A stretch of 64,000 bases of DNA from positions 96,001 through 160,000 of the IMG/VR virus record IMGVR_UViG_3300037781_000042; one strand, written 5' to 3'. This DNA is from a virus. Its lineage: Duplodnaviria; Caudoviricetes. The notes beneath the pieces were generated by a model. It searched no databases. It was not told the origin of the DNA and was given only the letters and a program-made list of their open reading frames with translations. Below, piece after piece: positions 18,362 to 60,443 of the stretch. Both the position numbers and the translations under genes were made by a program. Position 1 is the first letter of the stretch. The number at the start of each line of letters is the position of its first letter.

Positions 18362-18692
18362 AAATCAGTATTTCCTATAATTTTTCCAGTATCTCTAGTT
18401 TCAGCAGGTTCCTTAGGAAGTCTTTTAAATTCCCAACATTCAAAACCTTCATAAGTTCTTCTTTCTAACCACCAATCTTTTCCTACTACAAGCAAATCTC
18501 TAGAAATTTGAATAGGATAATATCGATCATCATATTCTTGATCTGCTAATTCTTTGAATTTTTCTATGTCTATTTTTACTTGAGGGGTTCCTATCCAAAC
18601 AACATCTTCTAAGGTCAATTTGTATTTATGTAGTGTGTCAACAGTTTCTTTTAAAAAATTTATCAATTTTATTTCTCCTTTAAAAATAAAAA

Positions 18693-44511: not shown

Positions 44512-47500
44512 ATGGCAGTAAATATAAATCTTTTTGATATTAAAAAACCCGGCGTAACTATAATTGAAACAAGCGCAAATGATCAAGAATTACTTCAAAG
44601 TAATCGATTATCAGAAGAGCGTTTAGTAGTTGGTTTTTCAAGGGTGGGAACATTTAATAAAGTAGTAAGAATAGAAAACGTAGAACAAAGAAGAAGAGTT
44701 TTTGGAGAAATTGATTCGTTTTTAGAAAAAAGAGGATCTTATTTCCATAGATTTATAGATATTTGTTTACAAGAAGGTCCTGTTCTAGCACTAAATTTAT
44801 TAGCTTTAGATAATAGTGATGATGGAGATAAAGTAGAATTTAATTCATTTTCAACTACCCCGCAAACAGAAAATCCTAATAAAATAAAAGAACTTTATGC
44901 TGCATTTTATTCTAAAGAAAGAATGTGGGAACCTTCAGAATCAAACTTTAAAGCTATTATTGATAGTAATATAGAAACAAAAGATTCTATTTTATCATTT
45001 GTAAATTTAAGTCAATCTCAATATTCTATATTGATCAAAAAAGCAGATTCTACTAGAGAGTTTGATGTATATGCGCACGAATATTTTGGAAAAGAAAATG
45101 TTCCTCCATATATGAATCCTTTAGATAAAATTTCAGATTATTTTGTAGATGTAAAGATAATTAAAGGAGACTTCACTGATTATCAAAGTTTGTCTACTGA
45201 TGCTGTTTATTCAAAATATTTTAGCACTAACGGGTTAAATAAAGATTCAGTTTCTTCTTTAGAAGGTTCATCAGATTTTGATGTTGTTCTTTCTGTTACT
45301 GGATCAATAGTTCCTGACATTTTAGATGGGTCGGGAATTTCTTATTCTATTGATAATATCATCAACAACTATTTATCTACTGTTGGTTTATTTTGTACTA
45401 TTAACGATGATTATTTATTGTCTTTATCAGAAGAAGATTTTTCTGTAATTGATATGTTAGGTCATAGTTTAGTAGATGAAAATTTAGATATAGAATCTAT
45501 AGACTTTTTATCTTATAAATTTAGTTTATTAGAGAATATAATTTATACACAAAAAACTACATTTACAGAAGATAACGTTCCTTTAGCAGACGGATCTGAT
45601 CATTATCAGAATTCTGTAGGAAAAGGAGAAAATGGATTATTTTCTAATAGAGTAACTGTAGATGGAACAGATGTTCAGGCAAACATAATTCCAGAAACTT
45701 CTTTAATAAAATTAGATAATGGAGCTAAGTATGCAACAATTAAAAATTATAGTACAAGTTCTGGAAATACTATAATTACCTATACACATCCAGATAAAGC
45801 AGGGGAAGGAACTTTTAATTATTTAGTTGATTCTGTTGATGCAGCAAATAGTAATGTTGTAATAAAAGGAGTTCATGGAGATCTTGATTTAGGAATGACA
45901 AATGAAGATTTCTATTTAACGAACGGAATTTCTAAATATTATTTTGAACTTTCTGGATTTGATGTAGATGGAACAAATAACATAACGACATTTACAGTAG
46001 CAGATAATACAAATTTATCTAACATTGATACTAATTATAAAGCTACTTGGTCAGCAGGATATAAAATTTTAGAAGTAGATTCAGCAAATAGTAAAGTAAC
46101 GATTGACGGTTATTGGGATTTTGATACTATAAGTTCTAACTTAACTGCTAATACAGTTTATTTAAAAACTAATTCAGGAACTACTGGAACTATGGCTTTT
46201 TCTGGTCATACAATTGATGATAATGGAGATACTGTAGTAACAATAACTGCTGCTTCTACAGAATTGGCAAATGGAACAACATTTAATTTAGTGAGTTTAG
46301 GAGAATTGGATGAGCTTGCAACAAATCCTTATTATGTTACTTTTGGTTTTGATTCAATAACTAGACCAAATATTTCAGCAAATAATGTTCAACTTGTATA
46401 TGAACCAGACGTTGTAAAAATAGATGGTGATAAATTAGTTGCTTATAAGAGTTCTCAAGCTTATGTTGATTGGGAGTCTGGTAAACTTGCTCAAGGAGAT
46501 GTTTATTATAAAGAAATTACTGGTCCTACAGATAAAGCATATTATGTTTCAATTGAAAAATTATTAGATAATGATGGAGTAGAAAGAATAGTAATTGATA
46601 ATTATACTGATACAGATTTATCTGTAAAAGATTCAGAAGTAATGGCATTAGGAAATAAAAAGAAAGTAGGAGATACTTACGAAGCAGTTTCTCCTTCAGA
46701 AATTGCATTTTCTTCTAGAATAGGAAATATTAATGAAAAGATTTTAATTGAACAAACATTTGATTCTGGAACAAGAATAAGATTAACTTCTACAGAAGCA
46801 GATAAATTAAAAGTAGGAGATTTATTAAATACTCAAGTAAATGTAGAAGGAATAACTAAAAATTATTTAACTCCTATTTTAACTAAAAGAAAAGTAGTAG
46901 TTTCTGAAGTAATTTATTATGATATTACTTTAGTAAGAGCTCCTAAAATATTTTTAATTTCAAGTAGTTATTATATTGAAAAATACAAAACATTTAACGA
47001 CTTCACTGATTCATTTAATTTAATTACTTTAGGTGGATTTAAAATGGGCGAATACCATTTACCTGGAAGCTTTTTAAATAAATCAAGCCAATTAGAAAAA
47101 ATATTAGGAGTCATTACAGATACTAATTTAGAAGATTCTTTAATAGATAGAAACATTATAGATTTTAGATACTTAGTAGATTCGTTTGAATCTTTAATAA
47201 CAAATGAACTTTATCCTAAAACAATTTTATCTAATTTATGTAGTAAACAAGGAAGATCGATTGCACTTTTAAATGGACCAAGTATAGAAGCATTTACTAA
47301 TTCAGTTGCTCCTGGACCAATTTTTTCAAGCGCTGCTAACAATAGAGTATTTGATGCTATTTATGTAGCTGAAGGTGGAAATGATGATTTAAACCCAGAT
47401 TATAAATATTCACATCCTTCTGTTTCAAATGGAGCAAAACATTCAACTGTAGTTGGACCTTATGTTACTTATGTTAAAAACAATGGTCAAAGAATTAAAC

Positions 47501-48075
47501 TTCCTGCTGGAGCACATGCTTCAAATTTATTTGTTTCTAAAAATAGAACAGGAGATAGATTTAAACCTGCTGCAGGAACATCTAGAGGATTTATTAGAGA
47601 TCCTAGAGTAGTAGGAGTAGAATATATTTCTGAAAATGATGTTCAATATTTTACTGAAATAGGATATAATCCATTTATAGATAAAAGTGGATATGGAATA
47701 ATAATGTACGGAAATCAAACAAATTATTTAAAAGTTTCTCCTTTAGCAAATTTACATGTAAGAGACATGTTATGTACAGTTGAGAGATTAATTGAATATG
47801 TTCTACAAAGATATATTTTCGATAATAATACTCCTAGAACAAGATTTCAAATATTCGAAGATGTAGATGCTTTATTATTTCCTTTAAAAGATGAAGGAGC
47901 ATTTACAGATTATTCAATTAAAATAGATTCTAGTAATAACAATGGATCTGTTTTAGATGGATCTTATGGTATAATAGAAATTGAAATTTTCCCTACGTCT
48001 GCAATAAGAAGCTTTATTTGTGAACTTAATGTAAAGAAAGGAAGTGGTATAGAAGTTTCAGGATTTAATATTTAA
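44512..48075 (+). CDS. Contractile tail sheath protein 2 (T4 gp18-like)
   Basis: KKPGVTIIE...VVGFSRVG.FNK.V; C-terminal GYNPFI..G....GNQT....L..L.VR......E..I...L..YIFDNN....R. Shares FLEKRGS.FHR and FRY.VD with sheath 1. Confidence 0.92.
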   Translation: MAVNINLFDIKKPGVTIIETSANDQELLQSNRLSEERLVVGFSRVGTFNKVVRIENVEQRRRVFGEIDSFLEKRGSYFHRFIDICLQEGPVLALNLLALDNSDDGDKVEFNSFSTTPQTENPNKIKELYAAFYSKERMWEPSESNFKAIIDSNIETKDSILSFVNLSQSQYSILIKKADSTREFDVYAHEYFGKENVPPYMNPLDKISDYFVDVKIIKGDFTDYQSLSTDAVYSKYFSTNGLNKDSVSSLEGSSDFDVVLSVTGSIVPDILDGSGISYSIDNIINNYLSTVGLFCTINDDYLLSLSEEDFSVIDMLGHSLVDENLDIESIDFLSYKFSLLENIIYTQKTTFTEDNVPLADGSDHYQNSVGKGENGLFSNRVTVDGTDVQANIIPETSLIKLDNGAKYATIKNYSTSSGNTIITYTHPDKAGEGTFNYLVDSVDAANSNVVIKGVHGDLDLGMTNEDFYLTNGISKYYFELSGFDVDGTNNITTFTVADNTNLSNIDTNYKATWSAGYKILEVDSANSKVTIDGYWDFDTISSNLTANTVYLKTNSGTTGTMAFSGHTIDDNGDTVVTITAASTELANGTTFNLVSLGELDELATNPYYVTFGFDSITRPNISANNVQLVYEPDVVKIDGDKLVAYKSSQAYVDWESGKLAQGDVYYKEITGPTDKAYYVSIEKLLDNDGVERIVIDNYTDTDLSVKDSEVMALGNKKKVGDTYEAVSPSEIAFSSRIGNINEKILIEQTFDSGTRIRLTSTEADKLKVGDLLNTQVNVEGITKNYLTPILTKRKVVVSEVIYYDITLVRAPKIFLISSSYYIEKYKTFNDFTDSFNLITLGGFKMGEYHLPGSFLNKSSQLEKILGVITDTNLEDSLIDRNIIDFRYLVDSFESLITNELYPKTILSNLCSKQGRSIALLNGPSIEAFTNSVAPGPIFSSAANNRVFDAIYVAEGGNDDLNPDYKYSHPSVSNGAKHSTVVGPYVTYVKNNGQRIKLPAGAHASNLFVSKNRTGDRFKPAAGTSRGFIRDPRVVGVEYISENDVQYFTEIGYNPFIDKSGYGIIMYGNQTNYLKVSPLANLHVRDMLCTVERLIEYVLQRYIFDNNTPRTRFQIFEDVDALLFPLKDEGAFTDYSIKIDSSNNNGSVLDGSYGIIEIEIFPTSAIRSFICELNVKKGSGIEVSGFNI

Positions 48076-48077
48076 AA

Positions 48078-48956
48078 ATGAATAAAGAAAAGCAACAAAA
48101 AGAAAATTATAATCAAAGTCTTAGAGGAAAGGATTGGTTAGGTATAGTTGTTGATATAGAAGATCCTTTACAAAGAGGAAGAGCTAAGATAAGAATATTT
48201 GAAAGATTTGATCAAAGAGCTCCTATTGACGATAAAGGAACTTATCCCGACGAACCTTTAAAACTAGAAGATTATCTAGATGAATCACATTTTTTACTTC
48301 CTAATAAAGCTTTGCCTTGGATGTTTCAAGTAAATTCTCAAATATTTGCAGGAGGCGAAAATCCAGGATCAGGTTCTTTTTGTACTCCTAAGTTAGGATC
48401 TTTGGTAAAAGTTAATTTTGTAAACGATGACATTTATTCCGGAGAATATCATACTGTTCATAAATTAAATGAAAAGATGATGGGAATAATTACTCGTGAA
48501 GATGGTGATTATGTAAATGCAAATGTTACTTTCTTTGATGAAGATGAAGATTATTGGATGCTTTATACAAAATCTATAGGACTTCAAGTATATCATAAAG
48601 GAAGTCAAATAGTAATTCGCCCAGACTCTTCTATATTCATAGAACATAAAGATACGGAATCTATGATAGAATTAAAAGGTCCTGATATTAAGATAATATC
48701 AAATAGAGATATTGACATAACTTCAGAAAATAGAATAACTGTTAATTCAAGTATAGTTAAAATAAATGGAGACAATACTTATTTAGGAAGCTCTCCTACT
48801 TTTTCTGCTGTTCATGGAGAACCTTTAATGAAATTACTTAAAGCTATGGCAGTAAATATAGACGGAAAAATGTTTGCTACCCCTGGCGTTACCACTACTG
48901 CCGTAGATGCAGCAGAAAATTTAATACTAGCACAAACCGTAAAAGTTGGATCATAA
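48078..48956 (+). CDS. Baseplate hub/spike, T4 gp5 N-terminal OB-fold / gpV-like, no lysozyme domain
   Basis: WLGIVVDIEDPLQRGRAKIRIF...LPW...GSF.TPKLGS.V.V.F..DDIYS..Y, followed by a beta-helix-like tail. Confidence 0.85.
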   Translation: MNKEKQQKENYNQSLRGKDWLGIVVDIEDPLQRGRAKIRIFERFDQRAPIDDKGTYPDEPLKLEDYLDESHFLLPNKALPWMFQVNSQIFAGGENPGSGSFCTPKLGSLVKVNFVNDDIYSGEYHTVHKLNEKMMGIITREDGDYVNANVTFFDEDEDYWMLYTKSIGLQVYHKGSQIVIRPDSSIFIEHKDTESMIELKGPDIKIISNRDIDITSENRITVNSSIVKINGDNTYLGSSPTFSAVHGEPLMKLLKAMAVNIDGKMFATPGVTTTAVDAAENLILAQTVKVGS

Positions 48957-49795
48957 TGAATAAAGAATTTAAGACATATAAAGAGTTTTTAAATGAGAGT
49001 CAGGAACTAGATCAATCTATATTTCCATTAGAAGAACCTGAAGAAGTAAAAGCGTTTATAGAAAAACATCTTGTAAATAAAAAATATAATGAAGAATATA
49101 GATTAACAGGAGATTGGAAAGTAGACGAAGAAGGATATTTTAGCACTCCTGGAAATTTAAATATATCTTCTATGAGAGCAGTTAAGAAAAAAATTCCATT
49201 TAAAATAAAAAATATAGGAGGAAATTTTAATTGTAGTCATAATGCTTTATATGATTTAGAAGGTCTTGAGAAGTTAGAACAAGTTGGTGGAAATTTTAAT
49301 TGCGGTTGGAACAATTTACACAATTTAAAAGAATTAAAAAATCTCGAATCAGTAGGGGGTTATTTTGAATGTCAGAGTAATAATAAATTAACTAGTTTAG
49401 AAGGGTTAAAAAAGCTTCAATTTGTTGGAAAAGAATTGCATTATTCATTATATTATTATTTTAATATAGTACATCTAGCACGAAATCATAGGAAGTTTAT
49501 TTATTATTTTAGTACCTTAATGTTCCCACAATTACATTCAAGGGTAAAAGTTTCTATTAAAAATCATTCATCATATTATGATACTTCATACGAAGATGGA
49601 ATAAAAACTTTTGTATCTTTGACACAAAACGAACAAAAGAAAATAATAACTGCTTTAAGTGAAGTAGATCTTCAAGCATATAGAAAACTTCTTTCTTATG
49701 CTGAAGAAAATAATATTAAGTTACCTTTAGATAAAGAAGTTTACAAATGGAATAAAGAAGCTAAAGATTTAGATGATACTGGATTAGAATTTTAA
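48956..49795 (+). CDS. Capped LRR protein (type I) with capsid-targeting-like leader
   Basis: MNKEFKTYKEFLNE; about 3.5 repeats of (V/I)GGxFxCxxNxLxxLxGLxxL; N- and C-caps shared with 54827..55732. Confidence 0.85.
   Translation: MNKEFKTYKEFLNESQELDQSIFPLEEPEEVKAFIEKHLVNKKYNEEYRLTGDWKVDEEGYFSTPGNLNISSMRAVKKKIPFKIKNIGGNFNCSHNALYDLEGLEKLEQVGGNFNCGWNNLHNLKELKNLESVGGYFECQSNNKLTSLEGLKKLQFVGKELHYSLYYYFNIVHLARNHRKFIYYFSTLMFPQLHSRVKVSIKNHSSYYDTSYEDGIKTFVSLTQNEQKKIITALSEVDLQAYRKLLSYAEENNIKLPLDKEVYKWNKEAKDLDDTGLEF
49681..49795. repeat. Long imperfect inverted repeat, left arm (partner 54827-54941)
   Basis: The 3' ends of the two type I LRR genes match at about 105 of 115 nt by eye, including a 29-nt perfect run aaatggaataaagaagctaaagatttaga. 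Confidence 0.85.
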
Positions 49796-49830
49796 TTTTT
49801 TATTTTAAAAATTTTTACTATATTAAAAAT
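49796..49830 (+). promoter_or_regulatory. Early-promoter-like motif, copy 6 (plus strand, diverged)
   Basis: TTTTTTATTTTAAAAATTTTTACTATATTAAAA, then AAGGAG and a TTG start at 49846. Confidence 0.55.
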
Positions 49831-49845
49831 AAAAAGGAGTAAAAA

Positions 49846-50436
49846 TTGAATATTTTTTATTTAGATGAAGATATAGATAAAATAGTAGATTATCATTGCG
49901 ACAAACATGTTGTTAAAATGACAGTAGAATCTATTCAAATGCTAGCTACTGCATATTACATCCAACACGGATACGGAAAAATGTTTAAGAAACTTACAGA
50001 AGAAGAAATTTCTTTTATGAAAAATGAAGTATTTGTAGATTTTCCAAGAGAAGAAATTTATAGAACTTCTCATCCATATCACCCTTCTACTCAATGGGCC
50101 GCACAATCTATAAATAATTGGAATTGGCTTCTACAATTAGGAATGAAACTATCAGCTGAATTTACAAAAAGATACGGAAAAGAACATGCTACAAATCCTA
50201 GATTTGAATGGATGAAAAATAATCCTCCTACAAATCTTCCAGACATTCCATGGACTCCGCCGCCTCTTGCCATGCCTGACATATATAAGCTAGAAAATGT
50301 GGTAGAATCATACAGAAATTTCTACATTCATGATAAACCATTTGCTACATGGGACAGATTAAATAATAAACCAGAATGGTTTGAAAAAGGTGACTTCAGA
50401 ATATGTACAGGGAGTGCAGAGGAGCATCAGGTTTAA
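49846..50436 (+). CDS. Pyrimidine-dimer DNA glycosylase-like protein (DenV/Pyr_excise family)
   Basis: MNIFYLD...HCDKHVVKM..E..QML.TA...HP...W....NW.WL...L..E...RYGK.H...P.AMPD.Y.....V.SYR.FY...K. Confidence 0.8.
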   Translation: MNIFYLDEDIDKIVDYHCDKHVVKMTVESIQMLATAYYIQHGYGKMFKKLTEEEISFMKNEVFVDFPREEIYRTSHPYHPSTQWAAQSINNWNWLLQLGMKLSAEFTKRYGKEHATNPRFEWMKNNPPTNLPDIPWTPPPLAMPDIYKLENVVESYRNFYIHDKPFATWDRLNNKPEWFEKGDFRICTGSAEEHQV

Positions 50437-50462
50437 TTTTAAATTAAAAGATATAGGTAACT

Positions 50463-51059
50463 ATGCCATACAATAAAAGCTTCTTAGGGGATAAAGAGAC
50501 ACGTCGAGGATATACTACAACTAGTAACTTGGTGATGTTAAATTTTCAGCCTTTATATCAGGATATGTTTGTTTTTGATCCTGATCATTTAAGTGATTAT
50601 GTTCAAGATTATACTAATATTTTGTATTTGTATGAAGAGGAAAATTCTGCTTTTGATGTATATCAGATACAGGCTTTTTTAGAAGATACTTGTGGAATAG
50701 ATGATGTCGACTTTTTAAAGGTTCAGACTAAGAGTAAAGAAGAAGGATTCTTTTTAGACTTTAAAGATTTGGATGTTAATGAACTTGAGTTAGTAAAGTT
50801 TATTAGATATATGGATTCAAATGAAAAAGAATTAGATACTTTAACATTTGATGAGTATAAGAAATTAGGACTTTCCAAAGAGTTAAGTTTTGGAAAACTA
50901 CAAGAGCAAAATTTTTATATTCCTGATATTTATAGACATTTTGAATATGATAAGTTTACTTTTATAGGTGGACCAGAAGAAGATTCTTTATGGGAATTTA
51001 AGATTATGTTTGATGCTTTAAAATTGAAGTATGAATTAGATTATGATTTTATCTTTTAG
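50463..51059 (+). CDS. Acidic hypothetical protein
   Basis: Open 198-aa D/E/F-rich ORF; no recognised motif. Confidence 0.5.
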   Translation: MPYNKSFLGDKETRRGYTTTSNLVMLNFQPLYQDMFVFDPDHLSDYVQDYTNILYLYEEENSAFDVYQIQAFLEDTCGIDDVDFLKVQTKSKEEGFFLDFKDLDVNELELVKFIRYMDSNEKELDTLTFDEYKKLGLSKELSFGKLQEQNFYIPDIYRHFEYDKFTFIGGPEEDSLWEFKIMFDALKLKYELDYDFIF

Positions 51060-51073
51060 AGGATATATAGTTT

Positions 51074-51760
51074 ATGAGTAGTACTGCACATATAGAAAAT
51101 CCAAATGATCCTGGATTTATTTGTAAACCTGAATTAACTGTATCTGGATTAGCAGAAGGAAAGATATTATTAGATGAAATCCTTTTAGTTTCAGAAGGAT
51201 ATGTTAAAAGAGATTCTATATTAAAAATATCTTTAACTGAATCTTATTTACAAGAAAATGATACTTATACATTTAATGCTCAAGATGTTTATAAATTTAT
51301 TTTAGGAGATAATGTTCAATCTTACTATTTAGAAAAAATAGAAGAGGTTGGAGATGTTACTGTTATTCATGTTTATGGAAAAACAGTTGAATTAGAAAAA
51401 ATATTTGGAACTTTAGAAGCTAAATCTTTATCTGAAGTTTATTTAGAAATTTCTGGTGAATTACAATTAACAGCTCCTTTAACGTGTCAATTAAGCAATC
51501 AGGATCCCGAAATTAGAGGAGTAACTTCTACTTCTGTAATATTTGATTCAAATGAATTAAATTCAAATTTTAGTAAAATAAGAGTTAGATATAAAAAAAT
51601 AAATGATTCAACTTGGTTATTTGCTGAATCATCTACTAGTGGATCTTTAACTTTATCTAATCTAGAAGAAAATGAAATTTATATTGCTTCTTATATGAAG
51701 TATTGTTCTTCTACTGATTGGTCTTTTTATTCTAAAAATTTATCATTCAAAACTTTTTAG
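51074..51760 (+). CDS. Protein with a C-terminal fibronectin type III-like domain
   Basis: VTSTSVIF...IRVRYKK...TW.....LTLSNLEENEIY......S...YS....FKT follows the FN3 pattern. Confidence 0.6.
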   Translation: MSSTAHIENPNDPGFICKPELTVSGLAEGKILLDEILLVSEGYVKRDSILKISLTESYLQENDTYTFNAQDVYKFILGDNVQSYYLEKIEEVGDVTVIHVYGKTVELEKIFGTLEAKSLSEVYLEISGELQLTAPLTCQLSNQDPEIRGVTSTSVIFDSNELNSNFSKIRVRYKKINDSTWLFAESSTSGSLTLSNLEENEIYIASYMKYCSSTDWSFYSKNLSFKTF

Positions 51761-52174
51761 TTCTGGACAATATTTGATAAATTCTAAATTGTCTAATTCT
51801 TTTAATTCCTTTTTACATTCTTTTATTTCTGTAGAAACTATCATAAATTTTTCAATTTTTTCAGAATATTTCTCTTCTATAAATCTCTGTAAATTTTCAA
51901 CTAAAGAAGTATGAATTACAGGAACTTTATAAACAAAGTATTTAGACTTAGAACTTTTAAAACTATTTTGAATTTTCTTAGTTAAAAAACAATTAAAATG
52001 AAAATCTGTATATTCAGGATCTCCTAAATCATGACTATTTTCATAATCTTTTCTAAGAATTTCTACATCTAAAAATTTATAATAAAATGGATCTAAGATG
52101 TCTTTTAAATCTTTTTCTATTTCAGTAGTTAAAATAAAATTCATTTATAATAAGTGGTTAATTAAAGTAACAGA

Positions 52175-53659
52175 TTATATATTGACACTAGATTTACGCA
52201 ATTCTTTTATTTGTTCTTCTAAATCACCTGGATTTTCTTCTACATTAATTCTACGAGCTTTAGGTAAAAAGTCTAATTTTTCTATTTCATTATAACTTAT
52301 ATCTAACATACCCGTTATTTCTTTTTGTAATCCTTCAATAGAAGTAAGTTGATTTCCAAATAATATTATATTTCCTTTTACTAGAGGAATTTCTTTTAAA
52401 GTTTTAAGTTTTGTTCTTTGAGCAAATAAAGACCCATTTACTTTTTTAATATCTTCGAACTTTTCTATTTTAGTAAATCCTACAGTTAAATCTCCATCTA
52501 CAATTTCTGGTCCACCTTTTAAAGAAGTTAAGTACTTATTATTTGAAAGATACAAATCTCCTACTTCCTGTGGGCAATGAAGTAAATTTATAATTTCAGT
52601 ATTTTGACAATCTAAATCTCCTACTTTTACTGGAATTCCTTCTAAAGTCTTTAATGGATTATAAGAACAGTCGTATTCGCGACCTACCTGTTTTGGTCCA
52701 TCTACCAAACTAGGCAAATTGTTATAAGAACAATCAAAAATTCCTTCTACTATTTCTGGAGATCCTTCTAAATTTTCTAATTTATTATTAGAGCAATTGA
52801 AATTTTCTGTAATTTTTCTGAATCTAATTCCTATATCTAATAAACTATTTAAATTTCTTCTAAATAAGTTTATGCTTCCATCATAATCATAAGTTCCATC
52901 TCCATTATCAGTTAACTTATCTTCATTAATTCCATATTTTGTAAGTGTACGATGTAATTGAGCTTGAGGAGAAGTTAATTCTCTAGGCATAAAAATATTT
53001 TCATCAAGTCCTAACTCGTTCATAACATAATGCATTCCTATTTCTGTATCATTTGCATTATAAACAAGTCTTCTTTCATCTTCATAAACAGCTACTGCAA
53101 TTTTGGAATAAGTTTTACTGTGTGATCTATTTTTATCTATAATGTAATAAAGAGTTACTCCTTGATTATAAACATAACTTTTAAAATAATTATCTTTTTT
53201 AGCAGCAGTACACCATCTAGTTCCTGATCCGTATTTACAACTAGATTCTATCGTTTGCGGAACAATAATTAAAAAATCATCATTATCTAATATTACTTCT
53301 ACCTCAGAAGTTTCTTTCTTTTCTTTATCTATTTCCTTTTTTCTTTTAAGTGCTTGTGTAATAAGCGAATCAAATTCTTCATAAGAAAGTCTTTGAATAT
53401 CTGCATTTATTAGATTTCTATTTTCTAATTCATGATAAGTCTCTATAGCAGAAGAAAGTTCAAATGGTTCTACTTTATCTTTTAAATGAAATTCAATTAA
53501 TTTTTCTACATATTTAAAATTAGGACTTGGATCCATCTTTACAAACTCGTCAAACGTTTCCTTATCTATTTTATTTGTATTTAAAAATCTTCTTTTAGCA
53601 CTTGCTTTAGATTCATTTAAACTTAAAAAGTCTCTATAATTTAAAAATTCTTTATTCAT
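52175..53659 (-). CDS. GSGTxWC-domain plus LRR protein (type II) with capsid-targeting-like leader
   Basis: MNKEFLNYRDFLSLNE-SKASAKRRF; DP.P..KY.EK; SCKYGSGTRWCT...YF..Y....LYYII; about 9 C-terminal LRRs (FxCSxNxLxxLxGxP). Confidence 0.8.
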   Translation of the reverse strand: MNKEFLNYRDFLSLNESKASAKRRFLNTNKIDKETFDEFVKMDPSPNFKYVEKLIEFHLKDKVEPFELSSAIETYHELENRNLINADIQRLSYEEFDSLITQALKRKKEIDKEKKETSEVEVILDNDDFLIIVPQTIESSCKYGSGTRWCTAAKKDNYFKSYVYNQGVTLYYIIDKNRSHSKTYSKIAVAVYEDERRLVYNANDTEIGMHYVMNELGLDENIFMPRELTSPQAQLHRTLTKYGINEDKLTDNGDGTYDYDGSINLFRRNLNSLLDIGIRFRKITENFNCSNNKLENLEGSPEIVEGIFDCSYNNLPSLVDGPKQVGREYDCSYNPLKTLEGIPVKVGDLDCQNTEIINLLHCPQEVGDLYLSNNKYLTSLKGGPEIVDGDLTVGFTKIEKFEDIKKVNGSLFAQRTKLKTLKEIPLVKGNIILFGNQLTSIEGLQKEITGMLDISYNEIEKLDFLPKARRINVEENPGDLEEQIKELRKSSVNI

Positions 53660-54816
53660 TATTCTATTATTCTTGGTGGTCTGTTTGAAATTACTTCTAA
53701 TAAACCTAATTCTAACTCATCTCTTTTATTTGATTCTGGATTTATATTTTTAGGAGCTTCTGGAATTCTCCTATCTGGATTTACTTCTAAATTTCCTAAA
53801 TCCAGTTGTTCTCTTCTAGCACTCGAAACATTTAATTCTCCTAAATCTAATTGTTCTCTTTCTGAACTTTCTGCATTTATATTATCAGGAAGTCTAATTT
53901 CTCTTTTAAGTTTTGCTTCTTCAGCAGATTCTTCTTCAATATTTGAAATTTTTATTTTATTTGAATCTTTAAAATCTTGATAATCTTCTTCCTTAGGTCT
54001 TCTTTCGTTTCCTTGTTCTGCATATAAACCAGTTTTAGGTCTAACGAAATTAGTTAAGAAATTAAAGTCTTGTCTATTATCATCACTAAAGTAGCCTGTT
54101 CCTCCATATCCAAATAATTCTTTAGTAGGCAAATTATAAACTTCTAAAATTCTTCTAGGAATAATTTCAAATGTATGTTTTATATCATCTTCGGTTCCTT
54201 CATTAGTAATAGAAGATGCAAGTCCCGAATAATCATCAAAAACAAATTCACAATCTCTAAGCTTTAAAACAATTACTCCTTGAGAATCATCATCATATTC
54301 TAATTTATTTCCATTTCTCTTAAGTAGTATTCTAGGATCTATAAGATAAATAGACATATCAAAAAATCTTAAATTTTTAACTAAAACGTCTCTCATATAT
54401 TTTTTATCTTGAACTGTTGATCTATAAGCTTCCATTAAAGATAAAAATTTCATATCGACAGATTCTCTAGAAGATACCGTAAAAGAAGTTCCTTCAGGAA
54501 GTCTTGGACCTTCGTTATTTAAAGTTAAAAGATCATTTACTCCTGAAAGTTGAGTAAACCACCAAGGTTCTTCAATAGAAAATTTTCTTAATAAATTAAC
54601 AAAATAATCTAATTTTTGAACTCTTAAATCGTCTCCTCTTGAAGATAGAAAATCTCTAGCACCTCCTGAAAGTAATCCAGGTTCTAAAGATTCGTCAGGA
54701 GAAATTCTAGGAAAAAATTCAAAACGCAAACCAAATGTTAAATATAATGGATCTTGAACTCCATCTACACTTCTATTTATAAATCTATTTCTATAATTAT
54801 CGTACTTATTTATCAT
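53659..54816 (-). CDS. Probable tail tube/baseplate-initiator-fold protein with C-terminal low-complexity repeats
   Basis: DPLYLTF.L.F...PWWF..LSG...ES.DM...L...YR....D....R..L..NLR.F.M.IY pattern typical of large-phage tail modules; repeated REQLDLG.L.V in the tail. Confidence 0.4.
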   Translation of the reverse strand: MINKYDNYRNRFINRSVDGVQDPLYLTFGLRFEFFPRISPDESLEPGLLSGGARDFLSSRGDDLRVQKLDYFVNLLRKFSIEEPWWFTQLSGVNDLLTLNNEGPRLPEGTSFTVSSRESVDMKFLSLMEAYRSTVQDKKYMRDVLVKNLRFFDMSIYLIDPRILLKRNGNKLEYDDDSQGVIVLKLRDCEFVFDDYSGLASSITNEGTEDDIKHTFEIIPRRILEVYNLPTKELFGYGGTGYFSDDNRQDFNFLTNFVRPKTGLYAEQGNERRPKEEDYQDFKDSNKIKISNIEEESAEEAKLKREIRLPDNINAESSEREQLDLGELNVSSARREQLDLGNLEVNPDRRIPEAPKNINPESNKRDELELGLLEVISNRPPRIIE

Positions 54817-54826
54817 TTGTATCTAT

Positions 54827-55732
54827 TTAAAATTCTAATCCTGTATCTTCTAAATCTTTAGCTTCTTTATTCCATTTATAAACTTCTTGATTTATAGATA
54901 ATTTAATATTATTTTCTTCTGAATAAGAAAGAAGTTTTCTACATGAGGGTAGATCCCAATCCATTAAATCTTCTATAATCTTCTTTTGTTCTTCTTCTGG
55001 TAAAGATACTAGATATTTTATTGAATCTTCGTATTTTTCTTGAGGTTCAACTTCTATATTTCCTTTAACTTCAAAAGTAAATTTTTTAGAAAGTATATTG
55101 TTACGATGACACCGGAAATCGCCACCTACAGACTTAAGATTTTCAAGACCTTTCAAACTGGTTAACTTGTTACCATGGCACGCAAAAGTACCATCTACAA
55201 ACTTAAGACTTTGAAAACCTTCTAAACTAGTTAACTTATTATAATGCAACCATAAATCCTCTCCTACAGACTTAAGATTCTCAAGCCCTTTTAAACCGGT
55301 TAATTTGTTATTATCACACCTGAAAGAGCCACCTACAAACTCAAGATTCTTAAGACCTTCTAAAGTAGTTAACTGGTTTTTAGAACATAAAAAATAATCA
55401 CGTACAGACTTAAGACTTTCTAAACCTTCTAAACTAGTTAATTTGTTATTAGAACAATCGAAATCGCCACCTACAGACTTAATTCTAAAAGGTAACTTAG
55501 TTAACTTCATTTCACTTAAATTTATATCCCCTGTACAAGAGACATACCCTTCTTCACCTATTGTCCAAGCACCAGATAAACGATGCTTCCTAGTTGGAGT
55601 CTTTTTCCCTTCTAGGTTTTCTTGGATCCATTTTTTAACTTCTCCAGGATCTTCTAAAGGAAACCTAGATTGATCGAAACCTTTGCTTTCGTTTATAAAC
55701 TCTGTATAATTTTTTATCTGTTTAGTTATCAA
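54827..55732 (-). CDS. Capped LRR protein (type I) with capsid-targeting-like leader
   Basis: MITKQIKNYTEFINE; 5.5 regular 22-aa LRRs (66-nt DNA period); C-cap RKLLSY.EENNIKL....VYKWNKEAKDL.DTGLEF shared with 48956..49795. Confidence 0.9.
   Translation of the reverse strand: MITKQIKNYTEFINESKGFDQSRFPLEDPGEVKKWIQENLEGKKTPTRKHRLSGAWTIGEEGYVSCTGDINLSEMKLTKLPFRIKSVGGDFDCSNNKLTSLEGLESLKSVRDYFLCSKNQLTTLEGLKNLEFVGGSFRCDNNKLTGLKGLENLKSVGEDLWLHYNKLTSLEGFQSLKFVDGTFACHGNKLTSLKGLENLKSVGGDFRCHRNNILSKKFTFEVKGNIEVEPQEKYEDSIKYLVSLPEEEQKKIIEDLMDWDLPSCRKLLSYSEENNIKLSINQEVYKWNKEAKDLEDTGLEF
55100..55480 (-). repeat. Coding tandem repeat with 66-nt period (LRR modules)
   Basis: Recurrent ctacagacttaag / ctacaaact(t/c)aag and gttaa(c/t)tt motifs every 66 nt. 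Confidence 0.9.
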
Positions 55733-56161: not shown

Positions 56162-57394
56162 TTATTTGGCATTAATACTCCCTAATACTGGAGCCCATCT
56201 TCTCTGTAAAAAATCATACATAGAAGTTTTCTCCTTGTTATTTTTCCAAGTTAACTTTTTCCTTAAAGTAACTCCTTTTAAATCATCAATTGCATCTTTA
56301 CCCAAAGAAGGATTGTTTTCTATTGTCAAGGTACCTGAAATGTTTTTCGGTAAACCTTTTAAACTTGTTAATTTTTTATTTCCTTCTATTTTAAAACTTT
56401 CAACACCTTTAAATTCTGAAAAATCTACGCTTTCTAAAGATTCTAGATCTGTATCAGAAATAACAATTGCTCCTGTTATTTTAAAATCTATATTCTTCAT
56501 TCTAGAAAAATCGATATAAGGAATATCAGAATTTACATAAAAATCTTTAAAATGAATCTGTTCAACGTTTTTTTCAACATTATGTCCTATTTTAGGATTA
56601 TGATTGTGAACTAAAATTTTTCTGCTTTCTCCTTCTGGTTCAGGTTTTTCTAAAAGCTTTTTAATTTTATCTGGTAAAGCATTCCACCAAATTCTTCTTT
56701 CTTCATTCATTCCAGTATCTAAAATAGGATTAAATGAAGAATCAGGTGCGTCCCAAAAATTAGAAAGCTGTCCACTATAATTTACTTGGGCAGCAACCTT
56801 ATATAAAGGATTTTTATCTTCACTCGAAACGGGTTGACTATCAAAAGCTTTGTTTGTTATAACATAAAAATGTTGTCCTTGTCTCCAAAAATAATCGTTC
56901 CAGTGTACTGGAGTTAAAAACGTAATACACCATTTAGTTCCTGATCCTATCTTTTTTGCTCCTGTCCAATTAAATACTAAATGACATCTCCAAGCATCGT
57001 CATCATAAACCATTACACTATTTTCAGAAATTTCTTTTTTCTTCTTTTGTGTATTAGAAATCTTTCCTCTAGCATCTATAATAACTTTTTCAAAGTCATC
57101 TATTTCAGAATATCTTTGAATGTCTTTATCGTTTCCACTTATTATATTTCTATTTGTTTTTTCGTGAAACTCTTCTATTAAATGACTAAGAGCCATTATT
57201 CTTTCCAGTTCCATGATTTGAGAATAATTTTCATGATCTTTCATTTGAAGAAAGAAGTCACACATTTTCTCAATATATTTTTTATTATTTGTTGGATCTG
57301 CAGATAAAAGCTGTGTAAAAGTAGAACTGTTGATTCTTCCAGTTTCTACAAATCTTTGTTCTGCTTGTTTTTTACCTTCATTAAGATGTTGCAT
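56162..57394 (-). CDS. GSGTxWC-domain plus short LRR protein (type II), paralog of 52175..53659
   Basis: MQHLNE-GKKQAEQRF; ADP...KKYIEK; KIGSGTKWCI; HFYVI; KVAA; C-terminal KKLTSLKGLPKNISG.L.I.NN. Confidence 0.8.
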   Translation of the reverse strand: MQHLNEGKKQAEQRFVETGRINSSTFTQLLSADPTNNKKYIEKMCDFFLQMKDHENYSQIMELERIMALSHLIEEFHEKTNRNIISGNDKDIQRYSEIDDFEKVIIDARGKISNTQKKKKEISENSVMVYDDDAWRCHLVFNWTGAKKIGSGTKWCITFLTPVHWNDYFWRQGQHFYVITNKAFDSQPVSSEDKNPLYKVAAQVNYSGQLSNFWDAPDSSFNPILDTGMNEERRIWWNALPDKIKKLLEKPEPEGESRKILVHNHNPKIGHNVEKNVEQIHFKDFYVNSDIPYIDFSRMKNIDFKITGAIVISDTDLESLESVDFSEFKGVESFKIEGNKKLTSLKGLPKNISGTLTIENNPSLGKDAIDDLKGVTLRKKLTWKNNKEKTSMYDFLQRRWAPVLGSINAK

Positions 57395-57433: not shown

Positions 57434-58102
57434 CTATTGTTTTACGTACCTGTCTAAGTATTCATAACAACATTTTAAAAACCATTCAAAAGTATCTGTT
57501 CCTTTAAATAATTTTAAATAAACATTCCATATTTGACCTTTAACATGATCTACAGGTTCTACTTCTTGTAAAGTTCTTTCTATTTTTTCTTTATTCCACT
57601 TCAATTGATTTTGGAACTTATTCATTTGTTCATTTGCATAAGCTCTTATTTCTTCAAAAGTAGAAAAATATTTAATATCATCTTCTAAATCAGAGCCTTC
57701 CATAAAAGGTCTTTTAGGATTTAAAGAATCTTGTTGATGTGTCATTTCATGAACTAAAGAATCTTCTAATCTAGACATCCAATTATCCCATTTAGTATCA
57801 TTTTCTTTTATAGAAAGAACATCTGGCTGTAGTAAAATATGTACTTGTTCATCTTTAGAATTATGAAATGCTGGACTTCCTTCTAATTCTGGAAAATCTT
57901 TGTAAGTATGAAATACTACGTCATATTTTTTAGTTACCATTGTTAAATATTCAGCAAGCTCCTCTAAAGAAGTTACTTTAGATTGAATAAAATCTTTAGA
58001 TCTAGCAACGTCTTTTTTAATTAATTCAATAGCATCCCATGGGATTGATGTTGATACTTTTTCATTTATAAATTCTTTATATGTCTTAAATTCTTTATTC
58101 AT
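57434..58102 (-). CDS. HExxH zinc metalloprotease-like (SprT/zincin) protein with capsid-targeting-like leader
   Basis: MNKEFKTYKEFINE; LVHEMTHQQD; downstream YFSTFEEIRAYANE supplies a plausible third ligand. Confidence 0.7.
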   Translation of the reverse strand: MNKEFKTYKEFINEKVSTSIPWDAIELIKKDVARSKDFIQSKVTSLEELAEYLTMVTKKYDVVFHTYKDFPELEGSPAFHNSKDEQVHILLQPDVLSIKENDTKWDNWMSRLEDSLVHEMTHQQDSLNPKRPFMEGSDLEDDIKYFSTFEEIRAYANEQMNKFQNQLKWNKEKIERTLQEVEPVDHVKGQIWNVYLKLFKGTDTFEWFLKCCYEYLDRYVKQ

Positions 58103-58469: not shown

Positions 58470-60443
58470 ATGAAAGATTCTCCTTGTAAAGATTGTAGTT
58501 GCGAGACTATTTATAGAAAAATTGAACGTCCTAAAACATACCAATTCGGGGTAGATAGTGACCAATGGATAAAATATTATGTTCCTGTAGATGATTATGC
58601 GGATGTAGCTGGTGCTGATTATTTTACATCTTATGAGGACATGGAAACAGATTACAATTCTACTGCTTTAGTAGCCTCTTTAGCAACTAAATTTTTATCT
58701 AATGGTCCGGGGTTTGATCCTTGGCACGATACTATAGAAGAAGCTGTAACATATTTAGATAGTTTTGATTATACGTTTGGAGGTTCATTTCCAGCAAATT
58801 CTTTTTATTGGACAATTATTTATGTAACTAATCCTAATTATGGAAAAGAATTACAATATGATTCTTCAGTATTAAGTTGGCCAATAAATCAAGATGCTAT
58901 TTGTTATGACGAATTAAAAGATCCTTTTTGGAAAATTAAATTTCCTATATGTGGATCGAATGGAAAAAAAGACAAAGACAATACTTTTAAATTTAAAGAT
59001 TGTGGTATCTGGAACGTAGAATATAGACTAAGACTTCGTCCTTTAGTATTTTTTGGTTGGCCAGAAGATGGAGATACTTGTGCAGATCATTGGTTAGAAT
59101 CGGGAGAAGAAGTAGATAATACTGAAAATAGAACTAAGCTATGGAATACGTATAGATTTTATAGTGCTATGAAAGAACAGGCAGGAGCAAAATATTTAGG
59201 AATGACTAAGCTTAGATTAGAAACTGGAATATTTAATGAAGATAGTCAAACACAAAAACCTATAGTTTGGTCAGAAGGAAAATATCCTCAGCCAGTAATT
59301 AAATATAAAGACTATTGGGATTCAAATTATGAAAATGGTAAATATCTTTATTATAAGGAATGCTCGCCTACTCAATGGGAAGGAATGCATCCTCATTTAA
59401 TATCTTCTGATATGGAAGAAACTGAAGTAGTTTATAAACAATTTAACTACAGTTTTACTTCAGGTTCTGTAAGTGAAGGATTATTTGAAGTAACTACAAA
59501 TGATTTTGATAATCCTGGCGATATTATTCTTTCTAAAAAATCACAACTAAAAGGAGATCAATATAATACAGCAGACATTCCTTTAAAATATAGGTTAGAT
59601 GAACCTGATAGATTTTTCAGTAACTGTTTAGAAAATCAATATGCTTCTCCAACAGGAGATGTTGAAATTGTACAAAGAGCTTTTATAAATGGTGAATGGA
59701 AAAAACTTCGTAAAGTTAGTTATAGTTTAATAGAAGTCGTAGAAAATCCTACTTCAGTTACTTTAGATGTAGATGTAGGAACAGTTATTAATTATGATGT
59801 AGGTAACATTGAAGATACTGATACATTTTATAATGGAACTACGTATAAAACAAAATATGAAATTTTAGTAAGTATAGAAAAAGTAACTAAATCTGTTCCT
59901 AAAATGGATTATGCAAACGTTACTATAGGAAATGTTACTGAATTAACAGATGATTTTGTTTATGAATTGGAAGGATTTACTCATGTAGATATGGATAAAC
60001 AAAAAGAAATTTCTATTTATCTTAAAGCTTTACCAGATTCTCCTAGCGGGCATCCTTTAGAACATGATACTGGATTTACAATGCCAGGTATTTCTTCTAT
60101 ACAACCAACTAAAAATGGATCTGACCCTGCAATTATAAATGAATCAGATACCATGCCTGAAAAATATTGGCCTTGGGGTGTACTTTCTGCAGATGAAAGA
60201 ACAGGCTATCAAGAACAATTTAAAAAAGTATACGAACCTTTACTTCCTATTCGTCCTGATCTTATTGATTTTGATGCTACTGGAACTGGGATAATAGATA
60301 ATGTTAGAGCAGGGCAAGCATATAGATGGGGTCACGTTCTTTCTGATGAAAATTGGATAGGAAGAAAAAATCCTTTCTGGTATATTATGATAGAAGAAGG
60401 ATGGATTAGATTAACTAAAACATGCGAAGGTTGTTGTGATTAA
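58470..60443 (+). CDS. Large hypothetical, probable virion protein with Cys-rich termini
   Basis: 657 aa; begins CKDCSC and ends CEGCCD; preceded by the ATATATAGTTT motif. Confidence 0.45.
   Translation: MKDSPCKDCSCETIYRKIERPKTYQFGVDSDQWIKYYVPVDDYADVAGADYFTSYEDMETDYNSTALVASLATKFLSNGPGFDPWHDTIEEAVTYLDSFDYTFGGSFPANSFYWTIIYVTNPNYGKELQYDSSVLSWPINQDAICYDELKDPFWKIKFPICGSNGKKDKDNTFKFKDCGIWNVEYRLRLRPLVFFGWPEDGDTCADHWLESGEEVDNTENRTKLWNTYRFYSAMKEQAGAKYLGMTKLRLETGIFNEDSQTQKPIVWSEGKYPQPVIKYKDYWDSNYENGKYLYYKECSPTQWEGMHPHLISSDMEETEVVYKQFNYSFTSGSVSEGLFEVTTNDFDNPGDIILSKKSQLKGDQYNTADIPLKYRLDEPDRFFSNCLENQYASPTGDVEIVQRAFINGEWKKLRKVSYSLIEVVENPTSVTLDVDVGTVINYDVGNIEDTDTFYNGTTYKTKYEILVSIEKVTKSVPKMDYANVTIGNVTELTDDFVYELEGFTHVDMDKQKEISIYLKALPDSPSGHPLEHDTGFTMPGISSIQPTKNGSDPAIINESDTMPEKYWPWGVLSADERTGYQEQFKKVYEPLLPIRPDLIDFDATGTGIIDNVRAGQAYRWGHVLSDENWIGRKNPFWYIMIEEGWIRLTKTCEGCCD

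What the first reader, a model, noticed from the sequence alone, without database searches (positions are those of the whole stretch)
48956..55732. Pair of LRR proteins with constant caps and variable LRR cassettes (VLR-like architecture)
Seen: 48956..49795 and 54827..55732 share an N-cap (DQS.FPLE.P.EVK..I...L..KK...RL.G.W...EEGY.S..G..N.S.M...K.PF.IK) and a near-identical C-cap (...RKLLSY.EENNIKL....VYKWNKEAKDL.DTGLEF). Between the caps they differ in repeat number (about 3.5 versus 5.5). Within the 22-aa repeats the framework N.LT.L.GL..L..V is fixed, while the strand positions vary in every repeat (GGDFDCSN, RDYFLCSK, GGSFRCDN, GEDLWLHY, DGTFACHG, GGDFRCHR). Established: LRR ligand specificity lies on the concave-strand residues, and lamprey VLRs use constant caps plus swapped LRR modules. 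Inference: an evolvable binder scaffold carrying a capsid-targeting leader, possibly an injected anti-defence or host-takeover protein diversified by repeat recombination.
Basis: partly seen in the sequence, partly recalled or inferred. Interest (0 to 1): 0.8.

Follow-up and report, generated by a model that had tools for sequence, protein, structure and literature searches.

The report
Capsid-tagged LRR binder family in phage
An uncultured 212-kb pond phage distantly related to T4 encodes a small family of leucine-rich-repeat binding proteins that each start with a T4-like "load me into the head, then cut me off" tag, so they are probably carried in the virus particle and delivered into the host, although no experiment has shown this.

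Summary
The two genes (48956-49795 +, 54827-55732 -) are paralogues (45% identity, E 3e-77). The repeat unit is 23 aa (69 nt), not 22. There are four copies in the genome, not two, and more in related pond phages. The 279-aa copy has a 43-aa non-LRR stretch in place of its last repeats.

The 14-15-aa leader matches the T4 capsid targeting sequence at all four residues that matter in T4. It sits at the N-terminus of at least ten otherwise unrelated proteins. The genome also encodes a gp21-type head protease fused to a scaffold, and a gp23-type capsid protein.

Variation is inherited, not programmed. One ortholog pair differs by an exact two-repeat deletion between 25-nt direct repeats. A sister strain carries two extra whole LRR genes whose homology breakpoints lie inside leaders. 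I found no reverse transcriptase and no silent donor cassettes, and the array is identical in contigs from four pond samples. The VLR comparison is therefore only architectural.

Packaging, cleavage, ejection and the binding target are all inferred.

The scan has reported leader-tagged LRR families before on other phage genomes (e1-3538374, e1-1970592, e1-5360239, e1-1970591, e1-1096413), and has reported the leader set in this genome.

The parts
48956..49795 (+). Family-A LRR gene, 279 aa: leader, helix, LRR N-cap, 3 units plus a stub, 43-aa non-LRR replacement, C-terminal helical domain ending DTGLEF. Its start overlaps the stop of the hub-like gene.
   Evidence: AF2 pLDDT 80.9
48956..48997 (+). 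Leader MNKEFKTYKEFLNE (predicted cut after E14). Its first 41 nt are 95% identical to the leaders of unrelated genes at G000 17139 and 154102.
49217..49441 (+). LRR units 1-3 plus the stub of unit 4 (residues 88-162)
49442..49570 (+). In-frame 43-aa Tyr/Phe-rich segment that replaces the last repeats. It has no relative in the genome and is predicted helical (pLDDT about 73-75).
49571..49792 (+). C-terminal helical domain. The last ~40 codons are 85-90% nt-identical to the 54827 copy and to P0004, with 28 of 31 identical residues using the same codon. This points to a recent recombination tract.
54827..55732 (-). Family-A LRR gene, 301 aa, TTG start overlapping the stop of the upstream gene: leader, helix, LRR N-cap, 5 units plus a terminal unit, four-helix C domain ending DTGLEF
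   Evidence: LRR_4 28.5 bits, cut-off 27; AF2 pLDDT 86.5, pTM 0.81
55688..55732 (-). Leader M(TTG)ITKQIKNYTEFINE, predicted cut after E15; disordered in the model (pLDDT under 50 for residues 1-16)
55088..55471 (-). Array of 69-nt LRR units (residues 88-215); the 138-nt super-period scores higher than 69 nt
54830..55087 (-). Family-specific C-terminal domain (helices 234-295). Outside this family it has no detectable relative among 1.84 billion representative proteins.
52175..53659 (-). Same operon: 494-aa protein with the same type of leader (MNKEFLNYRDFLSLNE), an uncharacterised GSGTRWC domain and C-terminal LRRs (second LRR family)
57434..58102 (-). Same operon: 222-aa protein with an identical-type leader (MNKEFKTYKEFINE) and an HEMTH (HExxH-like) motif, otherwise unrelated
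56162..57394 (-). 410-aa member of the second LRR family. It starts MQHLNE|G, so it has only the cut-site end of a leader.
48078..48956 (+). gp5-like baseplate hub protein, immediately upstream of the 279-aa LRR gene; it follows the second tail-sheath paralogue

Best explanation
These are members of a multigene family of head-packaged cargo proteins whose body is a leucine-rich-repeat binder.

Proposed mechanism:
1. The protein is made late, together with virion genes.
2. Its N-terminal 14-15 residues act like the T4 capsid targeting sequence and take it into the scaffolding core of the prohead.
3. The gp21-type protease cuts after [LI]-N-E. This leaves a 29-33 kDa acidic protein (LRR solenoid plus helical C domain) inside the head.
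4. The mature protein leaves with the DNA at infection, and its concave face binds a host protein. A defence component is one possible target.

Diversity is inherited and arises in three ways: point divergence on the concave face, gain or loss of whole 23-aa units by recombination between units, and gain or loss of whole genes by recombination within the leader-coding DNA.

Shown: the sequence features, the T4-type head genes, the predicted fold, the repeat indel and the cassette junctions.
Inferred: targeting, cleavage, ejection, binding and any role against defence.
For: 1. Leader match to T4. T4 ipII and ipIII both start MKTYQEFIAE. Here the leader reads ..KTYKEFLNE|S. T4 residues 4 and 7 matter for targeting and residues 8 and 10 for processing (PMC9026906). 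The equivalents here are Y, F, L/I and E.

2. Position specificity. A strict leader motif occurs 9 times in the six-frame translation of 211 kb. Eight of these lie 6-8 residues after the start of an ORF of 220 aa or more. Carriers are otherwise unrelated: family A, the GSGTRWC-LRR family, an HExxH protein, a weak Pol-beta-like NTase and a 215-aa protein.

3. T4-type head genes. The genome encodes Peptidase_S77 (56.3 bits, cut-off 27), fused to a scaffold-like region, and a Gp23 capsid protein (100 bits).

4. Cut-site motif. [LIVMF]NE[SAGKM] occurs 5 times in the protease-scaffold protein, against 0.53 expected from the genome average. Eleven of 52 genome-wide hits lie in the first 18 residues of a protein.

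5. Structure. AF2 leaves the leader disordered and folds residues 17-220 as an LRR solenoid (pLDDT over 90). Foldseek returns only LRR proteins.

6. Gene context. The genes are packed into operons with virion genes or other leader genes, with overlapping stops and starts.

7. Cassette behaviour. L026 and L027 (two samples) carry two extra family-A genes at a locus whose flanks are 92-96% identical in DNA to G000. The homology breaks lie inside leaders, and the leaders at L026:2127-2168 and L026:2966-3007 are identical. This resembles the T-even ip genes, which share only the CTS (PMC3012670).

8. Concave-face divergence. pN/pS is about 0.7-1.3 at concave positions, against 0.23-0.43 at framework positions.
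Against: - There is no proteomic, expression or cleavage evidence for this phage.
- The leader match is short (9-10 residues).
- The mature proteins are acidic and about 30 kDa, whereas T4 IPII and IPIII are, as I recall, small and basic. T4's CTS does load unrelated proteins such as GFP (PMC9026906).
- An LRR protein of Vibrio phage SRILMA lacks any leader and sits beside a DnaB-like helicase gene, so LRR modules in phages are not always cargo.
- The 54827 protein is identical on 7 contigs, its 90% cluster has one member, and four pond samples show no variant. There is therefore no sign of fast turnover on that scale.
- The concave positions were chosen from the same data and are near saturation, so pN/pS near 1 cannot separate relaxed constraint from diversifying selection.
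Confidence: 0.5

Rival explanations
1. External virion protein for host recognition. In this reading the conserved ends dock the protein on the tail or a fibre, and the variable LRR binds a cell-surface receptor. The paralogues would then give several receptor specificities.
For: The 279-aa gene is translationally coupled to a gp5-like hub gene downstream of two sheath genes. Two other copies directly follow large ORFs (797 and 747 aa) on the same strand. In phage Goslar, LRR or beta-helix domains on virion fibre proteins are proposed as host-recognition parts (bioRxiv 10.64898/2026.04.21.720040). Constant ends with a variable middle would fit a docking-plus-binding design.
Against: The same leader sits on an NTase-like protein, an HExxH protein and other unrelated proteins, which makes little sense for fibres. 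The leader ends in the protease-type site and is disordered in the model. Family-A genes sit in unrelated contexts in L014 and L026, with no conserved linkage to tail genes. The model contains no oligomerising fibre-like segment.
Confidence: 0.12
2. Intracellular host-takeover or regulatory binders that are never packaged. The shared 5' end would be kept for translation or mRNA reasons, or only because it acts as a recombination joint.
For: The leader DNA is 95% identical between unrelated genes. It demonstrably marks recombination junctions. LRR genes without leaders exist in phages and in this operon (56162-57394).
Against: The conserved positions are the amino-acid positions that matter in T4 (Y, F, I/L, E). 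Leaders differ at synonymous and neutral positions while keeping them, for example MKKEFLGYQEFINE and MNKIVKGYTEFLNE. A gp21-type protease and a matching motif in its scaffold part are present.
Confidence: 0.15
3. Prohead-core accessory proteins. They would be loaded by the leader but act only in assembly, and would then be degraded or expelled on maturation with no role after ejection.
For: The leader resembles the repeated Y-S-E-Y-[IL]-A-E-N units of the protease-scaffold protein, so co-assembly with the core is plausible.
Against: A family of variable binders with strain-level gain and loss is not what an assembly factor looks like. No further [LIVMF]NE[SAGKM] site occurs in any of the four family-A bodies in this genome, so complete degradation is not predicted.
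Confidence: 0.08
4. Programmed hypervariation: VLR-like cassette assembly or a diversity-generating retroelement acting on the LRR array.
For: Only the architecture: constant ends, variable unit number, variable concave residues.
Against: No RVT_1 match in the record. There is no near-identical template copy. Every LRR match lies in a long open frame. Contigs from four samples are identical across the array.
Confidence: 0.02

Closest known systems
Phage T4 internal proteins IPI, IPII, IPIII (and Alt) with the capsid targeting sequence MKTYQEFIAE, cut by prohead protease gp21 (Mullaney and Black 1996, as reviewed in PMC9026906, PMC3012670, PMC5694885)
   Same: A short N-terminal propeptide with the same key residues, ending in hydrophobic-x-Glu. 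It is carried by otherwise unrelated proteins. A gp21-type protease, a scaffold and a gp23-type capsid protein are present. The genes vary between strains while the tag stays constant.
   Different: The tag has 4 extra N-terminal residues and N at P2. The cargo is a 30-kDa acidic LRR solenoid with an orphan helical C domain, not a small basic protein. There are at least ten tagged genes here. Nothing has been shown experimentally.
T4 IPI*, an injected inhibitor of the GmrSD restriction enzyme (PMC3012670)
   Same: It is the model for what a CTS-loaded, ejected protein can do: bind and block a host defence protein.
   Different: No sequence or fold relation. No target is known here.
Injected bacterial LRR effectors (Shigella IpaH, Salmonella SspH1 LRR domains), which appear among the Foldseek hits
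   Same: An LRR domain serves as the target-binding part of a protein delivered into another cell. The fold is similar (E about 2e-3).
   Different: Those are delivered by type III secretion and are fused to an E3 ligase. Here delivery would be by the phage head, and no enzyme domain is present.
Lamprey and hagfish variable lymphocyte receptors
   Same: An LRR solenoid with variable unit number and variable concave residues. A hagfish VLR is the top Foldseek hit, but only at E 2.8e-4 and TM 0.33-0.36, alongside generic LRRs.
   Different: There is no incomplete germline gene, no donor cassettes, no somatic assembly, and no LRRNT/LRRCT disulfide caps. Variation here is inherited between paralogues and strains.
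Expanded LRR gene families of uncultured phages and giant viruses
   Same: The 23-aa unit and its N-cap hairpin have more than 3,600 metagenomic relatives, many on contigs over 100 kb. Many of these start with short tags such as MKHIKLFES or MKTFRLQES. BFVD hits include 'Leucine-rich repeat [uncultured Caudovirales phage]'.
   Different: The N-terminal helix and the C-terminal domain ending DTGLEF are confined to this small clade.

Membership tests
T4-type CTS-bearing head cargo (internal proteins) | N-terminal 10-20-residue propeptide resembling MKTYQEFIAE, with aromatic residues at the positions that matter for targeting | tested here: met
   KTYKEFLNE against KTYQEFIAE. The T4 sequence was confirmed in ipII and ipIII. 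Leaders are listed.
T4-type CTS-bearing head cargo (internal proteins) | Propeptide ends in a site for the head protease (cut after Glu, hydrophobic at P3) | tested here: met
   All leaders end in [LIV]-N-E followed by S, K or G. The same motif is about 9-fold enriched in the protease-scaffold protein. This is sequence evidence only.
T4-type CTS-bearing head cargo (internal proteins) | Phage encodes a gp21-family protease, a scaffold and a gp23-type capsid protein | tested here: met
   PF03420 56.3 bits (cut-off 27) and PF07068 100 bits (cut-off 24.4)
T4-type CTS-bearing head cargo (internal proteins) | Protein present in mature heads with its propeptide removed, and ejected on infection | not testable with these tools
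   The phage is uncultured. No RNA run is listed and no proteome is available.
Leucine-rich repeat proteins | Tandem LxxLxLxxNxL units forming a solenoid with an Asn ladder | tested here: met
   N9, L11 and L20 are invariant in 22 units. LRR_4 scores 28.5 bits against a cut-off of 27 for the 301-aa copy. The AF2 solenoid has pLDDT over 90. Foldseek returns LRR hits only. The 279-aa copy reaches no LRR family of Pfam: its best match, Recep_L_domain at 21.7 bits, falls just under the 21.8 cut-off.
VLR-type assembled receptors | Incomplete gene completed from flanking silent LRR cassettes; many variants within a population | tested here: not met
   The genes are complete. All 13 LRR matches in the genome lie in open frames of 270 aa or more. 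Four samples give identical contigs.
Diversity-generating retroelement targets | Reverse transcriptase plus a template repeat near-identical to the variable region | tested here: not met
   No RVT_1 match (the record is 82% complete). blastn finds no template-like copy.

The most novel reading that the evidence does not exclude
The 42-nt leader may do two jobs. It would be the address tag for head loading, and also a portable homology patch that lets co-occurring phages insert, delete and swap whole cargo genes in frame. In that reading, the LRR family is an inherited, recombining repertoire of injected binders, each aimed at a different host defence protein.
Probability: 0.25. Interest if true: 0.75.

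Novelty: new variant of a known kind. Interest (0 to 1): 0.55.

Why it matters
T4's internal proteins are the textbook case of phage proteins injected with the DNA to disarm host defences, but only a few small proteins have been studied. If LRR solenoids, the classic evolvable binder scaffold, are loaded by the same tag, then environmental T4 relatives may carry whole sets of injectable binders. That would give candidates for new anti-defence proteins. The leader-bounded cassettes would also show how such sets are reshuffled. The idea is directly testable, because the tag is close enough to T4's to be tried in T4 itself.

Tried and rejected
- Complex prediction of the leader (alignment A2, residues 1-45) with the scaffold part of the protease-scaffold protein (residues 232-500): no verdict (score 0.06, mark 0.32).
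- The look-up of sequencing runs: no RNA holder listed.
- The protein-atlas search on the C domain: no usable hit.
- phmmer of the C domain against 1.84 billion representatives: only two family members found.
- hhalign of the family-A C domain against the C domain of LRR families that also end in DL.D.G[FL]: probability 1.2%, so the similar tails are not evidence of homology.
- The odd 43-aa segment of the 279-aa copy is not a frameshifted or inverted LRR and has no relative in the genome.
- The search for related loci in IMG/VR found only one further family-A locus, the same contig as L015.
- tblastn against cultured phages gave only LRR-module hits, in a Vibrio phage and in huge uncultured phages, none with the caps.
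- In read laying, the joints at 55375/55458 and 55512/55603 and the variant letters near 49758 and 55633-55676 come from short contigs of paralogues or of a related phage, which map onto the shared caps or, for the joints, onto similar repeat units. They are not alleles of these genes, and neither joint is a multiple of 69 nt.
- The Repoila et al. 1994 paper on ip gene polymorphism is not held, and Petrov 2010 has no text on internal proteins. The idea that the CTS-coding DNA mediates ip gene exchange in T-even phages therefore rests on my memory.
- Literature searches found no description of CTS-tagged LRR proteins.


Full report
What is there. The window is bases 96001-160000 of a 211,581-bp IMG/VR phage record (27% GC, estimated 82% complete). 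The two ORFs of the finding are real: 48956-49795 (+, 279 aa) and 54827-55732 (-, 301 aa, TTG start). They align over their whole length at 45% identity, E 3e-77. The 301-aa copy passes Pfam LRR_4 (28.5 bits against a cut-off of 27). The 279-aa copy reaches no LRR family of Pfam: its best match, Recep_L_domain at 21.7 bits, is just under the 21.8 cut-off. Tandem Repeats Finder gives a 69-nt period (23 aa, not 22) at 55115-55482. A 138-nt super-period scores higher, which suggests growth in two-unit steps.

A family, not a pair. A search of the whole record finds four full-length paralogues. The other two are at G000 170179-170973 (264 aa) and 205420-206262 (280 aa), both outside the window. 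All share the same layout:
- a 14-15-aa leader;
- a conserved stretch (DQSRFPLEDPEEVK..WI);
- the LRR N-cap hairpin;
- 3 to 5 full 23-aa units plus a terminal unit;
- an ~85-aa C-terminal region, its helical domain ending in the invariant DTGLEF.

The 279-aa copy is aberrant. After three units and a stub, residues 163-205 are unrelated to the other copies at nucleotide level (31-48% identity). This stretch is not a frameshifted or inverted repeat and has no relative in the genome. AF2 predicts helices there at pLDDT about 73-75.

Over 22 units from six family members, entropy is 2.2-3.2 bits at unit positions 2, 3, 5, 7, 8 and 10. It is 0-1.6 bits elsewhere, and N9, L11 and L20 are invariant. 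In the model, F4 and position 5 lie in the short inner strand, so these variable positions are the concave face. Every LRR family shows this pattern.

The 'constant caps' are also less special than they look. For most pairs, the N-domain, the LRR region and the C-domain have similar identity. Only the leader region and the last ~40 residues stand out.

Structure. The 301-aa protein folds with mean pLDDT 86.5 and pTM 0.81. Residues 1-16 are disordered, residues 17-220 form a capped LRR solenoid (pLDDT over 90), and helices span 234-295. Foldseek against PDB and BFVD returns only LRR proteins at weak E-values. These include VLRs, Leptospira LRRs, SDS22, IpaH/SspH1 LRR domains and internalins, plus LRR proteins of uncultured phages and giant viruses. 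The hagfish VLR at rank 1 (E 2.8e-4, TM 0.33-0.36) is a generic LRR match.

The leader. T4 ipII and ipIII both begin MKTYQEFIAE, which I confirmed in the T4 record. In T4, residues 4 and 7 of this capsid targeting sequence matter for targeting and residues 8 and 10 for processing. The tag loads unrelated proteins into the head (PMC9026906; PMC5694885).

The leader here, MNKEFKTYKEFLNE|S, has Y, F, L/I and E at the equivalent positions. A strict form of the motif occurs nine times in the six-frame translation of the genome. Eight of those lie 6-8 residues after the start of an ORF of 220 aa or more. A relaxed search brings the total to about ten.

The carriers are otherwise unrelated:
- the four family-A proteins;
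- two proteins with an uncharacterised GSGTRWC domain plus LRRs (window 52175-53659 and G000 162367-163989);
- a 222-aa protein with an HEMTH motif (57434-58102);
- a weak Pol-beta-type nucleotidyltransferase (G000 17787-18692; PF14792, E 0.0017, below cut-off);
- a 215-aa protein (G000 17139-17786).

The genome encodes a Peptidase_S77 (gp21-type) protease fused to a scaffold-like region, and next to it a Gp23-type capsid protein. The capsid protein's nearest cultured relatives, at about 36% identity, include Lak phages, T4-like cyanophages and PAU-like phages of Bacteroidota.

The motif [LIVMF]NE[SAGKM] occurs five times in the protease-scaffold protein, against 0.53 expected. Eleven of the 52 genome-wide occurrences lie in the first 18 residues of a protein. 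The scaffold part also carries about 14 Y-S-E-Y-[IL]-A-E-N units that resemble the leader. All of this fits a T4-type load-and-trim tag, but it is sequence evidence only.

How the family varies.

(a) Unit number. P0004 (280 aa, identical on seven contigs) and P0003 (234 aa, from a different sample) have identical gene sequences apart from an in-frame 138-nt deletion of exactly two units. The deletion is bounded by a 25-nt perfect direct repeat. The downstream DNA differs at 15 of 1349 positions, so the two come from different strains. Assembly collapse cannot be fully excluded.

(b) Whole genes. Contigs L026 and L027, from two samples, match G000 16442-18609 at 85-96% DNA identity. They contain two extra intact family-A genes: L026:698-1477 (260 aa) and L026:2127-2963 (P0005, 278 aa). 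Each lies directly in front of a leader-bearing gene. Homology with G000 breaks inside the leaders. In L026, the leader of P0005 and the leader of the following NTase-like gene are identical (L026:2127-2168 and 2966-3007), whereas G000 has a different leader on that gene. The leader DNA therefore acts as the joint at which whole cargo genes are gained or lost in frame.

(c) Mosaicism. The 5' third of the 279-aa gene is closest to the 205420 copy (73-86% nt). Its last ~40 codons are 85-90% identical to the 54827 copy and to P0004, with 28 of 31 identical residues using the same codon. The LRR region shows about 50% same-codon use.

(d) Point divergence. pN/pS is 0.7-1.3 at concave positions, against 0.23-0.43 at framework positions and 0.33-0.74 in the end domains. 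The concave class was defined from the same data and is near saturation, so this does not prove diversifying selection.

What it is not. There is no reverse transcriptase in the record and no template-like copy of the array. Every LRR match in the genome lies in a long open frame. Contigs from four pond metagenomes are identical across the 54827 gene. For example, a 2468-nt contig covering 53207-55674 has no differences, and there are no 69-nt-multiple indels. Contigs break at the caps, where paralogues share sequence. The 54827 protein is identical on seven contigs, and its 90% cluster has one member. Variation is therefore inherited and slow on this scale, not programmed. The VLR comparison holds for architecture only.

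Distribution. The 23-aa unit with its N-cap hairpin has more than 3,600 relatives in metagenomes, many on phage-sized contigs. Many begin with short tags such as MKHIKLFES, MKYLKLFESF or MKTFRLQES, which also end in hydrophobic-x-Glu. In contrast, the family-A N-terminal stretch and C domain are confined to a few pond phages. The C domain finds only family members among 1.84 billion representatives. It shows no profile similarity to the C domains of other LRR families that end in a similar DL.D.G[FL] tail. Family-A genes sit in unrelated contexts:
- after a hub-like gene;
- inside an operon of leader genes;
- after large ORFs;
- in L014, next to a MoxR-type ATPase and a vWA/DUF2201 gene.

This argues for a mobile cargo cassette rather than a fixed structural part.

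Verdict. The most likely reading (about 0.5) is a family of head-loaded, protease-trimmed LRR binders that are delivered with the DNA, that is, a new kind of cargo for the known T4 CTS mechanism. The main rivals are external host-recognition proteins (LRR domains are proposed for that role in phage Goslar), unpackaged intracellular binders, and assembly-only core proteins.

I found no paper describing CTS-tagged LRR proteins. Earlier agents of this scan have reported the leader set of this genome and similar leader-tagged LRR families in other phage genomes. I verified the leader, the protease and the repeat array independently. The repeat-unit deletion, the leader-bounded cassettes at this locus and the orphan C domain are new in this report, as far as I can see.

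Noticed in passing
window 38882-42238 and 44512-48075 (+): Two very large tail-sheath paralogues (1118 and 1187 aa). Both match PHROG 34521 'tail sheath' only in their C-terminal ~350 residues (E 9e-91 and 2e-75), so each carries a long extra N-terminal part.
   Followed up: partly
G000 58895-60862 (outside the window; L034:3896-5863): The gp21-type protease is fused to a scaffold-like region with about 14 Y-S-E-Y-[IL]-A-E-N units. The units resemble both the cargo leader and the T4 CTS, so the leader may mimic a scaffold repeat.
   Followed up: partly
window 54830-54850 and 49772-49792; also P0022, P0041, P0053 and others: The extreme C-terminus DTGLEF is invariant in every family-A member examined here (the 8 rows of alignment A2, plus L026:698-1477 and P0009). 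Other LRR families with unrelated C domains end in a similar DL.D.G[FL]. No partner or function is known.
   Followed up: partly
window 57434-58102 (-): A leader-tagged 222-aa protein with an HEMTH (HExxH-like) motif. It may be a packaged metallopeptidase. It has no Pfam or PHROG match.
   Followed up: no
window 56162-57394 (-): A 410-aa member of the GSGT[RK]WC-LRR family starts MQHLNE|G. It keeps only the cut-site end of a leader, unlike its tagged paralogue at 52175-53659.
   Followed up: no
window 60440-61372 (-): A 310-aa protein with a Glyco_hydro_19 (chitinase class I / lysozyme-like) domain, E 2e-8; probably a cell-wall hydrolase.
   Followed up: no
L014:10001-14641: In a different pond phage, the family-A gene (P0004) is followed by a 253-aa gene, a MoxR-type AAA ATPase (PHROG 1297) and a vWA/DUF2201 protein (PHROG 1314). 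The same neighbourhood was noted by the scan in another genome (e1-5375554).
   Followed up: no
L036:10001-10783 and 19157-19939: An 86-kb metagenomic contig carries two 260-aa LRR genes about 9 kb apart. The first of them (P0024) starts MKHIKKYKLFES; the start of the second was not read. Multi-copy LRR genes therefore occur well beyond this phage.
   Followed up: no
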